From the sequence record NC_054910.1: a stretch of 64,000 nt of DNA; one strand, given 5' to 3'. This DNA is from Escherichia phage EcNP1. The translations under genes were made by a program, and so were the position numbers. Positions 48,879 through 49,706 of this stretch are shown piece by piece. The first letter of the stretch is position 1; every line of letters starts with the position of its first letter. Under the pieces are notes generated by a model that saw only the letters and a program-made list of their open reading frames with translations, was not told the origin of the DNA and made no database searches.

Positions 48879-48954
48879 TGGTCGAGGCAGTAGGGATCGA
48901 ACCTACGACCTAGGACTTAGAAGGTCCTTGCTCTTCCTTCTGAGCTATGCCTCG
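48879..48954 (-). tRNA. tRNA-Arg (anticodon UCU)
   Basis: Manual fold: acceptor CGAGGCA/UGCCUCG, T-arm GGTTCGATCC, anticodon loop CUUCUAA, encoded CCA. Confidence 0.85.
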
Positions 48955-48958
48955 GATT

Positions 48959-49033
48959 TGGCGGACGTGATAGGATTCGAACCTATAACCAATCGCTTAA
49001 CAGGCGATCGCTCTGCCATTGAGCTACACATCC
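48959..49033 (-). tRNA. tRNA-Asn (anticodon GUU)
   Basis: Manual fold: acceptor GGAUGUG/CACGUCC with G-U, anticodon stem AUCGC/GCGAU, loop CUGUUAA. Confidence 0.8.
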
Positions 49034-49037
49034 AAAT

Positions 49038-49124
49038 TGGTGGGGAGTGATGGAGTCGAACCACCCGAGTCGCAATGACAATGGATTTACAGTCCACACC
49101 GCTACCTCTACGGAATAACTCCCC
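49038..49124 (-). tRNA. tRNA-Tyr (anticodon GUA), long variable arm
   Basis: Manual fold: 87 nt, acceptor GGGGAGU/ACUCCCC, anticodon loop CUGUAAA. Confidence 0.8.
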
Positions 49125-49133
49125 AAATTAATT

Positions 49134-49208
49134 TGGTGGCCCTGGGTGGAATTGAACCACCATCTGGCGATTATGAGTCGCTTGCTTGAACCTTCCAGCT
49201 ACAGGGCC
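49134..49208 (-). tRNA. tRNA with anticodon CAU (Ile2-type or Met)
   Basis: Manual fold: acceptor GGCCCUG/CAGGGCC, perfect T-arm, anticodon loop CUCAUAA; occupies the T4 tRNA-Ile position. Confidence 0.75.
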
Positions 49209-49209
49209 T

Positions 49210-49285
49210 TGGTGCTGATTGACGGAATCGAACCGCCGACCTTCTCATTACAAGTGAGTTGCTCTACCTACTGAGCTAAATCAGC
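49210..49285 (-). tRNA. tRNA-Thr (anticodon UGU)
   Basis: Manual fold: acceptor GCUGAUU/AAUCAGC, anticodon loop CUUGUAA. Confidence 0.85.
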
Positions 49286-49290
49286 AAAAC

Positions 49291-49380
49291 TGGCGGAGGC
49301 GATAGGATTCGAACCTATGAGTCGCCGGAGCGACTGCCGGTTTTCAAGACCGGTGCATTAAACCACTCTGCCACGCCTCC
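49291..49380 (-). tRNA. tRNA-Ser (anticodon UGA), long variable arm
   Basis: Manual fold: 90 nt, acceptor GGAGGCG/CGCCUCC, anticodon stem CCGGU/ACCGG, loop CUUGAAA. Confidence 0.85.
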
Positions 49381-49382
49381 AG

Positions 49383-49456
49383 TCTCCATACAAGGATTTG
49401 AACCTTGGACCTCCTGATCCCAAATCAGGCGCTCTACCAAACTGAGCTACACGGAG
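49383..49456 (-). tRNA. tRNA-Pro (anticodon UGG)
   Basis: Manual fold: acceptor with two G-U pairs, anticodon loop UUUGGGA, CCA not encoded. Confidence 0.8.
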
Positions 49457-49466
49457 TAAATTAAAT

Positions 49467-49540
49467 TGGAGCGGATAATGAGAATCGAACTCACATCATC
49501 AGATTGGAAGTCTGAGGTAATACCATTATACGATATCCGC
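49467..49540 (-). tRNA. tRNA-Gly (anticodon UCC)
   Basis: Sequence GCGGATATCGTATAATGGTATTACCTCAGACTTCCAATCTGA...CCGCTCCA matches T4 tRNA-Gly as recalled. Confidence 0.88.
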
Positions 49541-49545
49541 AAATT

Positions 49546-49632
49546 TGGTGCGAGAAGTGGGACTCGAACCCACAAGGAAATCATTCCGCAGCATTTTAAG
49601 TGCTGTGCCTTTACCAATTTGACCATTCTCGC
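49546..49632 (-). tRNA. tRNA-Leu (anticodon UAA), long variable arm
   Basis: Manual fold: 87 nt, acceptor GCGAGAA/UUCUCGC, anticodon loop CUUAAAA. Confidence 0.85.
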
Positions 49633-49633
49633 G

Positions 49634-49706
49634 CTGGGAATAAAGGACTCGAACCTTTGCATCCTGGAATCAAAATCCAGTGCCTTACCAACTTGGCTAA
49701 TTCCCA
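49634..49706 (-). tRNA. tRNA-Gln (anticodon UUG)
   Basis: Manual fold: acceptor UGGGAAU/AUUCCCA, anticodon loop UUUUGAU. Confidence 0.85.

What the first reader, a model, noticed from the sequence alone, without database searches (positions are those of the whole stretch)
48879..49706. Ten-tRNA cluster including tRNA-Tyr and tRNA-Asn
Manual folding gives Gln, Leu, Gly, Pro, Ser, Thr, CAU (Ile-type), Tyr, Asn and Arg, tightly packed on the minus strand. T4, as I recall, has eight, lacking Tyr and Asn, with a gap holding segB between Ile and Arg. Here that gap is filled by two more tRNAs.
Basis: partly seen in the sequence, partly recalled or inferred. Interest (0 to 1): 0.45.

Follow-up and report, generated by a model that had tools for sequence, protein, structure and literature searches.

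The report
Known T2/RB3-type ten-tRNA phage cluster
The ten tightly packed tRNA genes are real, but they are the ordinary, already published tRNA cluster carried by most T4-like coliphages; phage T4 itself is the less common variant in which a selfish nuclease gene (segB) occupies the place of the Tyr and Asn tRNAs.

Summary
Observation confirmed. ARAGORN and Rfam find ten tRNA genes on the minus strand at 48879-49706: Gln, Leu, Gly, Pro, Ser, Thr, CAU, Tyr, Asn, Arg. The window is 100% identical to Escherichia phage vB_EcoM_Nami (MZ502380.1, Tequatrovirus), where all ten are annotated. The same ten genes in the same order (98.8% identity) were deposited for phage RB3 (AJ884578) and described with T2L and RB1 in 2008 (PMC2330249). 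That paper showed that T4 SegB cuts preferentially inside tRNA-Asn and converts this block to the T4 form. About 392 phage records carry the adjacent Tyr+Asn pair, against about 126 with T4's Ile-segB-Arg, so T4 is the minority form. The CAU tRNA resembles E. coli tRNA-Ile(CAU). Tyr and Asn are among the amino acids most enriched over E. coli, and AAU and UAU among the most enriched codons. The near-identical T6 tRNA-Tyr has published anti-Septu activity. Verdict: already known, low interest.

The parts
49633..49706 (-). tRNA-Gln (UUG); no encoded CCA. The anticodon stem-loop allele differs from T4 (65/73) and is identical to RB3.
49546..49632 (-). tRNA-Leu (UAA), class II; identical to T4 (87/87).
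49467..49540 (-). tRNA-Gly (UCC); identical to T4 (74/74).
49382..49456 (-). tRNA-Pro (UGG); no encoded CCA; identical to T4.
49291..49380 (-). tRNA-Ser (UGA), class II; CCA encoded, unlike the annotated T4 gene.
49210..49285 (-). tRNA-Thr (UGU); 73/76 to T4. Carries A27/A43 instead of C27-G43. This exact allele is in 269 of 506 matching phage records.
49134..49208 (-). tRNA with anticodon CAU, Ile2 (lysidine) type. It is 81.6% identical to E. coli tRNA-Ile(CAU), identical to the T2 and RB3 allele, and only 47/72 identical to T4 tRNA-Ile.
49038..49124 (-). tRNA-Tyr (GUA), class II. Absent from T4. 86/87 to RB3 and 84/87 to T6; variable arm identical to T5 and T6 tRNA-Tyr.
48959..49033 (-). tRNA-Asn (GUU). 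Absent from T4. 75/75 to RB3. No E. coli match at E<=0.01 was annotated tRNA-Asn.
48957..48983 (-). 27-nt sequence GGTTCGAATCCTATCACGTCCGCCAAA in the 3' part of tRNA-Asn. It fits the published description of the preferred SegB recognition site (GGTTCRANTCC at the 5' end, CCAR at the 3' end, G6, A16, G18, A26, A27). It is identical in T2, RB3 and RB18.
   Evidence: site reconstructed from the paper's text; the figure itself is not held
48879..48954 (-). tRNA-Arg (UCU); 75/76 to RB3 but only 49/70 to T4 tRNA-Arg.
49813..49841 (-). Sigma-70-like promoter match (TTGACT-17-TATCAT, 10/12) about 107 nt upstream of tRNA-Gln, inside the end of the trna.2 homologue. Consensus match only.
48512..48862 (-). 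116-aa ORF of unknown function (phrog_3355) between tRNA-Arg and rnaD. Present in T2 and RB18, absent in T4 and RB3.
48396..48515 (-). Homologue of T4 rnaD (species 2 small stable RNA), 108/121 identical to T4.
48251..48389 (-). Homologue of T4 rnaC (species 1 small stable RNA), 136/139 identical to T4.
48177..48200 (-). Intrinsic-terminator-like hairpin (10 pairs, 7 G-C) followed by a T run. Probable end of the tRNA/small-RNA transcription unit.

Best explanation
This is the standard segB-free tRNA operon of T-even phages (genus Tequatrovirus), in the form already described for T2L, RB1 and RB3. It lies between the trna.2-4/ipI genes and the small stable RNAs rnaD and rnaC. Inferred from T4 biology: the ten genes are transcribed together from the minus strand and cut into mature tRNAs by host enzymes such as RNase P, with CCA added to Gln and Pro. 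Their main job is to top up the host tRNA pool for codons that this A+T-rich phage uses far more than E. coli does: AGA, AUA, UCA, GGA, ACA and UUA for the T4-shared set, and AAU and UAU for the Asn and Tyr tRNAs. Tyr, Lys and Asn are the three amino acids most enriched over E. coli. A second, overlapping role is to keep translation going when host defence nucleases destroy host tRNAs. This has been shown experimentally for the near-identical T6 tRNA-Tyr against Septu; for this phage it is only inferred. T4's eight-tRNA layout is the alternative form, in which the homing endonuclease gene segB occupies the Tyr/Asn position. T4 SegB cuts preferentially inside tRNA-Asn of segB-less phages and converts this block to the T4 form.
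For: Identity: the window is 100% identical to MZ502380.1, where all ten tRNAs are annotated. RB3 record AJ884578 has the same ten genes in the same order at 98.8% identity, and per-tRNA identity to RB3 is 72/76 to 87/87. The flanking genes match T4 trna.2-4, ipI, 57B, 57A and gene 1 upstream, and rnaD and rnaC downstream.

Prior description: PMC2330249 reports that T2L, RB1 and RB3 lack segB and carry tRNA-Met(CAU), Tyr, Asn and Arg. It places the preferred SegB site in tRNA-Asn and shows that T4 x T2L crosses exclude about 1250 bp containing these genes. The matching 27-nt site is present here, and no segB is found in the window.

Frequency: 392 phage records carry the adjacent Asn+Tyr pair, against 126 with T4's Ile-segB-Arg.

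Codon demand: Tyr is 1.84x, Lys 1.82x and Asn 1.54x enriched over an E. coli sample. AAT is 3.2x and TAT 2.6x enriched, and eight of the nine most enriched codons are read by cluster tRNAs.

Defence role: Septu cleaves tRNA-Tyr and T6 tRNA-Tyr rescues infection. T4, which has no tRNA-Tyr, cannot escape, while T2, which has this same cassette, is resistant (PMC13096335; T2 layout). The variable arm of the Tyr tRNA is identical to that of the T5 tRNA-Tyr, which is reported to resist retron-Eco7 because of its distinctive variable loop.
Against: Nothing contradicts the identification. The functional part rests on limited evidence. Expression, processing and charging of these tRNAs in this phage were not measured. 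The codon comparison used greedy longest-ORF gene sets and one 50-kb E. coli sample. tRNA-Tyr scores only 29.7 bits in Rfam, some GenBank records label the homologue tRNA-OTHER or pseudo, and the T6 copy is reported to be relatively unstable. The T4 tRNA region is described as non-essential for phage development (PMC2330249), so any benefit depends on host or conditions. The direction of evolution (segB displacing Tyr/Asn, or Tyr/Asn being gained) is inferred from homing experiments and from mosaic genomes such as T6 and RB18, not from a phylogeny.
Confidence: 0.93

Rival explanations
1. The Tyr and Asn tRNAs (with Thr) are kept mainly as an anti-defence cassette, not for codon supply. They replace or out-titrate host tRNAs that are cut by Septu or retron-Eco7 (Tyr) and by PARIS AriB or P2 OLD (Thr, Asn).
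For: T6 tRNA-Tyr rescues infection under Septu. T4, which lacks it, cannot escape, and T2, with this same cassette, is resistant. AriB cleaves E. coli tRNA-Lys(UUU), Thr(UGU) and Asn(GUU) between positions 40 and 41 next to a UAAU motif, and the T5 variants carry substitutions there. In this window tRNA-Asn reads UAAGC|G where E. coli asnT reads UAAUC|C, and tRNA-Thr reads UAAUG|A where E. coli thrU reads UAAUC|A. P2 OLD toxicity is suppressed by phage tRNA-Thr(UGU). The Tyr variable arm is identical to that of T5. The Asn tRNA found no E. coli match annotated tRNA-Asn.
Against: Septu also cleaves the T6 phage tRNA-Tyr, so protection depends on dosage and needed gene amplification. There is no tRNA-Lys in the cluster, so PARIS would still act; T4 needs T5 tRNA-Lys for rescue. 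The strong match between cluster anticodons and the most over-used codons is what the codon-supply model predicts. No experiment addresses a Tequatrovirus tRNA-Asn.
Confidence: 0.3
2. The CAU tRNA is an elongator tRNA-Met, as ARAGORN and most GenBank records label it, and not an AUA-reading tRNA-Ile.
For: ARAGORN and the MZ502380, RB3 and T2 annotations call it tRNA-Met. The anticodon as encoded is CAU.
Against: The best full-length E. coli match is the gene that RefSeq annotates as tRNA-Ile. It shares the acceptor end GGCCC/GGGCC and an identical anticodon stem-loop, GCGAC-UCAUAAU-CGC. From established knowledge, these are the elements E. coli TilS uses to make lysidine. AUA is 4.85x enriched in the phage ORFs. 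The T4 gene at this position is the characterised tRNA-Ile, and the RB18 annotation notes 'CAU anticodon probably modified'.
Confidence: 0.08
3. The tRNA-Tyr gene is a decaying pseudo-tRNA with no function.
For: Its Rfam score is only 29.7 bits against a threshold of 29, with several non-standard pairs in the model alignment. Some records annotate homologues as tRNA-OTHER or tRNA-Pseudo-GTA. T6 tRNA-Tyr is reported to be relatively unstable.
Against: ARAGORN accepts it. It is conserved at 95-100% identity in hundreds of phages. Its D-stem covaries with T5 (CCG/CGG here, CUG/CAG in T5) and its anticodon stem differs from those of T5 and E. coli by paired changes. The T6 copy, 84/87 identical, is detected by Northern blot and rescues infection.
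Confidence: 0.04
4. The ten-tRNA layout is a recent, lineage-specific expansion of a T4-like eight-tRNA cluster, meaning a new gain of Tyr and Asn in this phage.
For: Only the comparison with T4 alone.
Against: The layout is found in about 390 records, including the classic isolates T2, RB3, RB27 and RB18. The flanking CAU and Arg alleles also differ from T4's, which a simple insertion would not produce. SegB homing experimentally converts this form into the T4 form.
Confidence: 0.02

Closest known systems
Phage RB3 / RB1 tRNA gene cluster (EMBL AJ884578, AJ884577; Brok-Volchanskaya et al. 2008, PMC2330249)
   Same: The same ten tRNAs in the same order and orientation, at 98.8% identity over the 828 bp. 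There is no segB, the tRNA-Asn is identical and carries the preferred SegB site, and rnaD and rnaC lie downstream.
   Different: RB3 has rnaD directly after tRNA-Arg. This window has an extra 116-aa ORF (48512-48862) between them. There are single-base differences in Arg, Tyr, Ser and Gly, and four in Thr (72/76).
Phage T2 / T2L tRNA region (AJ880101; PV648364)
   Same: The same CAU-Tyr-Asn-Arg cassette, with an identical CAU allele. The same 116-aa ORF (351 bp) follows tRNA-Arg. There is no segB.
   Different: T2 has a 133-aa ORF where this phage has tRNA-Thr, so T2 has nine tRNAs.
Phage T4 tRNA cluster (AF158101: eight tRNAs plus segB)
   Same: The same genomic position and flanking genes. 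The Leu, Gly and Pro genes are identical, and Ser and Thr are near-identical. rnaD and rnaC are conserved.
   Different: T4 has segB in place of Tyr and Asn. Its Ile and Arg tRNAs are different alleles (47/72 and 49/70 identity), and its Gln has a different anticodon stem-loop (65/73).
Phage T6 tRNA-rich region (NC_054907; Chihara et al. 2026, PMC13096335)
   Same: It contains a tRNA-Tyr that is 84/87 identical, with the same variable arm. That tRNA has been shown to counter Septu.
   Different: T6 is a mosaic: a T4-type Ile allele and segB where Asn sits here. The T6 annotation lists no Asn, Pro or Ser tRNA in this region.
Eleven-tRNA variants with tRNA-His (for example RB18, PinkRuby, ECO07P2)
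   Same: The same cassette, with Tyr and Asn.
   Different: These have an extra tRNA-His between Asn and Arg. RB18 also has a segB homologue between Ser and Gly, where this phage has tRNA-Pro.

Membership tests
Bona fide tRNA genes (Rfam RF00005) | Cloverleaf sequence and structure score at or above the curated gathering threshold (29 bits). | tested here: met
   All ten pass. Nine score 59-74 bits and Tyr scores 29.7 bits. ARAGORN agrees on all ten.
T-even segB-less tRNA cluster of T2L/RB1/RB3 type (PMC2330249) | Gene content and order: Gln-Leu-Gly-Pro-Ser-Thr-CAU-Tyr-Asn-Arg. | tested here: met
   Identity to RB3 is 98.8%, and per-gene identity is 72/76 to 87/87.
T-even segB-less tRNA cluster of T2L/RB1/RB3 type (PMC2330249) | Genomic position between the trna.2-4/ipI genes and rnaD/rnaC/e.8. 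| tested here: met
   The upstream ORFs match the T4 layout. rnaD and rnaC are aligned at 108/121 and 136/139 identity.
T-even segB-less tRNA cluster of T2L/RB1/RB3 type (PMC2330249) | Absence of segB from the tRNA region. | tested here: met
   tblastn with T4 and T6 SegB against the whole 64-kb window gives nothing better than E about 1. The rest of the genome outside the window was not searched.
T-even segB-less tRNA cluster of T2L/RB1/RB3 type (PMC2330249) | Preferred SegB recognition site inside tRNA-Asn. | tested here: met
   A 27-nt sequence fitting all published descriptors lies at 48957-48983. It is identical in T2, RB3 and RB18. Actual cleavage cannot be tested here.
T4-type tRNA cluster (eight tRNAs plus segB) | [quoted passage not shown] | tested here: not met
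   There is no segB. CAU and Arg are only 47/72 and 49/70 identical to the T4 genes.
tRNA-Ile2 (CAU anticodon, lysidine-modified, reads AUA) | CAU anticodon, with an acceptor stem (C4-G69, C5-G68) and anticodon stem-loop like E. coli ileX/ileY. These are the TilS determinants, taken from established knowledge. | tested here: met
   The best E. coli match (81.6%, full length) is annotated tRNA-Ile. The alignment shows the same GGCCC...GGGCC ends and an identical GCGACUCAUAAUCGC.
tRNA-Ile2 (CAU anticodon, lysidine-modified, reads AUA) | Lysidine at position 34 and charging with isoleucine. | not testable with these tools
   This needs mass spectrometry or an aminoacylation assay.
Anti-defence phage tRNA-Tyr (T5/T6 type; PMC11555353, PMC13096335) | A phage-type variable arm distinct from that of E. 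coli tRNA-Tyr. | tested here: met
   The variable arm GUCAUUGCGACUCG is identical to T5 and T6. E. coli tyrU has GUCAC--AGACUUC.
Anti-defence phage tRNA-Tyr (T5/T6 type; PMC11555353, PMC13096335) | Rescue of infection in the presence of Septu or retron-Eco7. | not testable with these tools
   This has been shown only for the T6 and T5 genes. T2, which carries this cassette, is reported to be Septu-resistant.

The most novel reading that the evidence does not exclude
The CAU-Tyr-Asn-Arg block may be selected chiefly as an anti-defence cassette. Tyr would act against Septu and retron-Eco7. Asn and Thr carry anticodon-stem substitutions exactly at the PARIS AriB cleavage site (40|41). If so, segB homing from T4-type phages strips a co-infecting phage of defence-evasion tRNAs. 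That would set up a conflict between a selfish endonuclease and anti-defence genes, and it could help explain why both layouts persist in nature.
Probability: 0.25. Interest if true: 0.4.

Novelty: already known. Interest (0 to 1): 0.08.

Why it matters
It matters little as a discovery. The cluster is annotated in the source genome, was published in 2008, and is present in hundreds of sequenced T4-like phages. The useful outcome is a correction of perspective. T4, the textbook reference, is the less common layout, in which a homing endonuclease gene sits where Tyr and Asn tRNAs are found in most relatives. Differences from T4 in this region should therefore not be read as novelties. The cluster remains a convenient natural system for separating two roles of phage tRNAs: codon supply, and replacement of tRNAs destroyed by host defences.

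Tried and rejected
1. I looked for segB or a SegB-like gene in the window with tblastn, using the T4 and T6 proteins. Nothing was found, so this is not a segB-containing mosaic.

2. I tested whether the CAU tRNA is simply T4's tRNA-Ile. It is not (47/72 identity). It is a different allele, closer to E. coli tRNA-Ile(CAU).

3. I asked whether tRNA-Asn is a recent capture from E. coli. At E<=0.01 it found only ten weak, partial E. coli matches; the four listed are annotated tRNA-Thr and none tRNA-Asn.

4. I considered that the A27/A43 mismatch in tRNA-Thr might be a defect private to this genome. This was rejected: the exact allele is the commonest one, in 269 of 506 matching records.

5. I searched Pfam and PHROGs for a function of the 116-aa ORF next to tRNA-Arg and of the trna.2 and trna.3 homologues. 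Only families of unknown function were found.

6. Rfam at gathering threshold found nothing for rnaC or rnaD. They were located by alignment to the T4 and RB3 annotations instead.

7. I did not run the large protein-database, structure or metagenome searches. The identification was already unambiguous and they could not change the verdict.
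Full report
**Observation.** ARAGORN run on the whole 64-kb window returns exactly ten tRNA genes. 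All are on the minus strand, between 48879 and 49706. In transcription order they are Gln(UUG), Leu(UAA), Gly(UCC), Pro(UGG), Ser(UGA), Thr(UGU), a CAU tRNA, Tyr(GUA), Asn(GUU) and Arg(UCU). The Rfam tRNA model finds the same ten above its gathering score. Nine score 59-74 bits, and tRNA-Tyr only just passes at 29.7 bits against a threshold of 29. The genes are separated by 0-10 nt, and eight of the ten encode their own CCA end; Gln and Pro do not.

**Source and prior annotation.** The region is 100% identical to Escherichia phage vB_EcoM_Nami (MZ502380.1; Straboviridae, Tequatrovirus), and all ten tRNAs are annotated in that record. The 828-bp cluster matches 855 phage records, of which 396 cover at least 80% of it in one place. 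One of these is a 1556-bp record, AJ884578, 'Bacteriophage RB3 tRNA gene cluster'. It carries the same ten tRNAs in the same order at 98.8% identity. Gene by gene, identity to RB3 runs from 72/76 to 87/87.

**Comparison with T4.** The T4 annotation (AF158101) has Gln, Leu, Gly, Pro, Ser, Thr, Ile, then segB (a GIY-YIG homing endonuclease gene), then Arg, rnaD and rnaC.
- Leu, Gly and Pro are identical between T4 and the window, and Ser and Thr are nearly so.
- The CAU tRNA is only 47/72 identical to T4 tRNA-Ile, and the Arg tRNA only 49/70 identical to T4 tRNA-Arg.
- tRNA-Gln has a different anticodon stem-loop (65/73).
- Homology to T4 breaks about 12 nt into the CAU gene and resumes at the start of rnaD.

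The difference is thus an alternative Ile-to-Arg cassette, not two genes dropped into a gap. T2 has the identical CAU allele and the same CAU-Tyr-Asn-Arg cassette. T6 is a mosaic: it has the T4-type Ile allele, a tRNA-Tyr 84/87 identical to this one, and segB where Asn sits here. RB18 keeps Tyr and Asn, adds His, and has a segB homologue where tRNA-Pro sits here.

**Published description.** Brok-Volchanskaya et al. 2008 (PMC2330249) sequenced the T2L, RB1 and RB3 tRNA regions. Their main findings were:
- These phages lack segB and carry tRNA-Met(CAU), Tyr, Asn and Arg genes.
- T4 SegB recognises a 27-bp site containing the T-loop motif GGTTCRANTCC and often ending in CCAR.
- The preferred site lies entirely within tRNA-Asn.
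- In T4 x T2L co-infections segB is inherited at nearly 100%, with exclusion of about 1250 bp of T2L DNA carrying Met, Tyr, Asn, Arg and two ORFs.

The window contains GGTTCGAATCCTATCACGTCCGCCAAA at 48957-48983 on the minus strand. This sequence satisfies every descriptor given in the paper's text (G6, A16, G18, A26, A27) and is identical in T2, RB3 and RB18. No segB-like sequence exists in the window. The cluster is therefore the segB-less target allele.

**Frequency.** The 176-bp Asn+Tyr segment is covered at 80% or more in 392 phage records. T4's Ile-segB-Arg segment is covered at 80% or more in 126 records. These counts include redundant and RefSeq/GenBank duplicate records, so they are approximate. 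They still show that the Tyr+Asn layout is the commoner one and T4's the minority.

**The CAU tRNA.** Prediction tools and most records call it tRNA-Met. Its best E. coli match, full length at 81.6% identity, is a gene that RefSeq annotates as tRNA-Ile. The alignment shows the same GGCCC...GGGCC acceptor ends and an identical anticodon stem-loop, GCGAC-UCAUAAU-CGC. From established knowledge of E. coli TilS recognition, these are the elements that direct lysidine formation. AUA is 4.85-fold enriched in the phage ORFs.

**tRNA-Tyr quality.** The low Rfam score reflects the long variable arm and an atypical D-arm and acceptor register in the generic model. Several observations argue for a real gene:
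- ARAGORN accepts it.
- It is conserved at 95-100% identity in hundreds of records.
- Its 3-bp D-stem covaries with T5 (CCG/CGG here, CUG/CAG in T5), and its anticodon stem differs from those of T5 and E. coli by paired changes.
- The T6 copy is seen on Northern blots and rescues infection.

**How it probably works.** By analogy with T4 (inference), the genes are co-transcribed and processed by host enzymes. A sigma-70-like match lies about 107 nt upstream of tRNA-Gln, and a strong terminator-like hairpin follows rnaC. Both are consensus matches only.

A codon count used 84 long ORFs of the window (17,496 codons) and 43 ORFs from a 50-kb E. coli K-12 segment (14,896 codons). Tyr (1.84x), Lys (1.82x) and Asn (1.54x) are the three most enriched amino acids. 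The most enriched codons are AGA 6.2x, ATA 4.85x, TCA 3.45x, AAT 3.2x, GGA 3.0x, ACT 2.9x, ACA 2.9x, TAT 2.6x and TTA 2.55x. Eight of these nine are read by tRNAs of the cluster. This is the pattern the classical codon-supply model predicts, and it extends naturally to Tyr and Asn.

**The defence-evasion rival.** Recent papers show that phage tRNAs also replace host tRNAs destroyed by defence nucleases.
- Septu cleaves tRNA-Tyr in the variable arm. T6 tRNA-Tyr, when overexpressed or amplified through SegB, restores infection. T4, which lacks tRNA-Tyr, cannot escape, and T2 is resistant (PMC13096335).
- The Tyr variable arm here is identical to that of T5 tRNA-Tyr, which is reported to resist retron-Eco7.
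- PARIS AriB cuts E. coli Lys(UUU), Thr(UGU) and Asn(GUU) tRNAs between positions 40 and 41, next to a UAAU motif (PMC12409363).
- Here Asn reads UAAGC|G where the host reads UAAUC|C, and Thr reads UAAUG|A where the host reads UAAUC|A.
- P2 OLD toxicity is relieved by phage Thr(UGU) tRNAs (PMC12445682).

These points make an anti-defence contribution plausible, but nothing has been tested for a Tequatrovirus tRNA-Asn. Septu also cuts the phage tRNA-Tyr, and the cluster has no tRNA-Lys. I rate codon supply as the main role and defence buffering as a real but secondary and conditional role.

**Verdict.** The feature is already known: it is annotated in the source record, was published in 2008, and is the majority layout among T4-like coliphages. 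Interest is low.

Noticed in passing
window 48512-48862 (-): A 116-aa ORF of unknown function (phrog_3355, no Pfam hit) lies between tRNA-Arg and rnaD. T4 and RB3 have rnaD directly after tRNA-Arg. T2 and RB18 share this ORF. Its stop codon overlaps the aligned start of rnaD.
   Followed up: partly
window 48251-48515 (-): Homologues of the T4 small stable RNAs rnaD (species 2, 108/121 identical) and rnaC (species 1, 136/139 identical) are present. They are not annotated in MZ502380.1 and were not reported by Rfam at gathering threshold.
   Followed up: partly
window 49210-49285 (-): tRNA-Thr(UGU) has A27 opposite A43 at the top of the anticodon stem, where T4 and RB3 have C27-G43. This exact allele is the commonest one, found in 269 of 506 matching phage records.
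   Followed up: partly
window 49633-49706 (-): The anticodon stem-loop of tRNA-Gln differs from T4's at eight positions: CUGGA-UUUUGAU-UCCAG here, UAGCA-CUUUGAC-UGCUA in T4. The stem changes are compensated, and the rest of the tRNA is identical. The allele matches RB3.
   Followed up: no
window 51127-51582 (-): The gp57B homologue, about 1.4 kb upstream of the tRNA cluster, matches Pfam PF23474 Anti-CBASS protein Acb1 (E 2.6e-60). The source record annotates it as RNA 2',3'-cyclic phosphodiesterase. This is a known anti-defence gene.
   Followed up: partly
L004 (RB18) 1696-2346; L005 (T6) 1293-1958: segB homologues occupy different tRNA slots in different phages. In RB18 one lies between Ser and Gly, where tRNA-Pro sits here. 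In T6 one takes the place of tRNA-Asn. This is consistent with repeated homing into tRNA genes.
   Followed up: no
window 49291-49380 (-): The T-loop of tRNA-Ser reads GGTTCGAATCC here, against GGTTCAAATCC in T4 and RB3. This changes position 6 of the secondary SegB site to the G that is found in the preferred Asn site.
   Followed up: no
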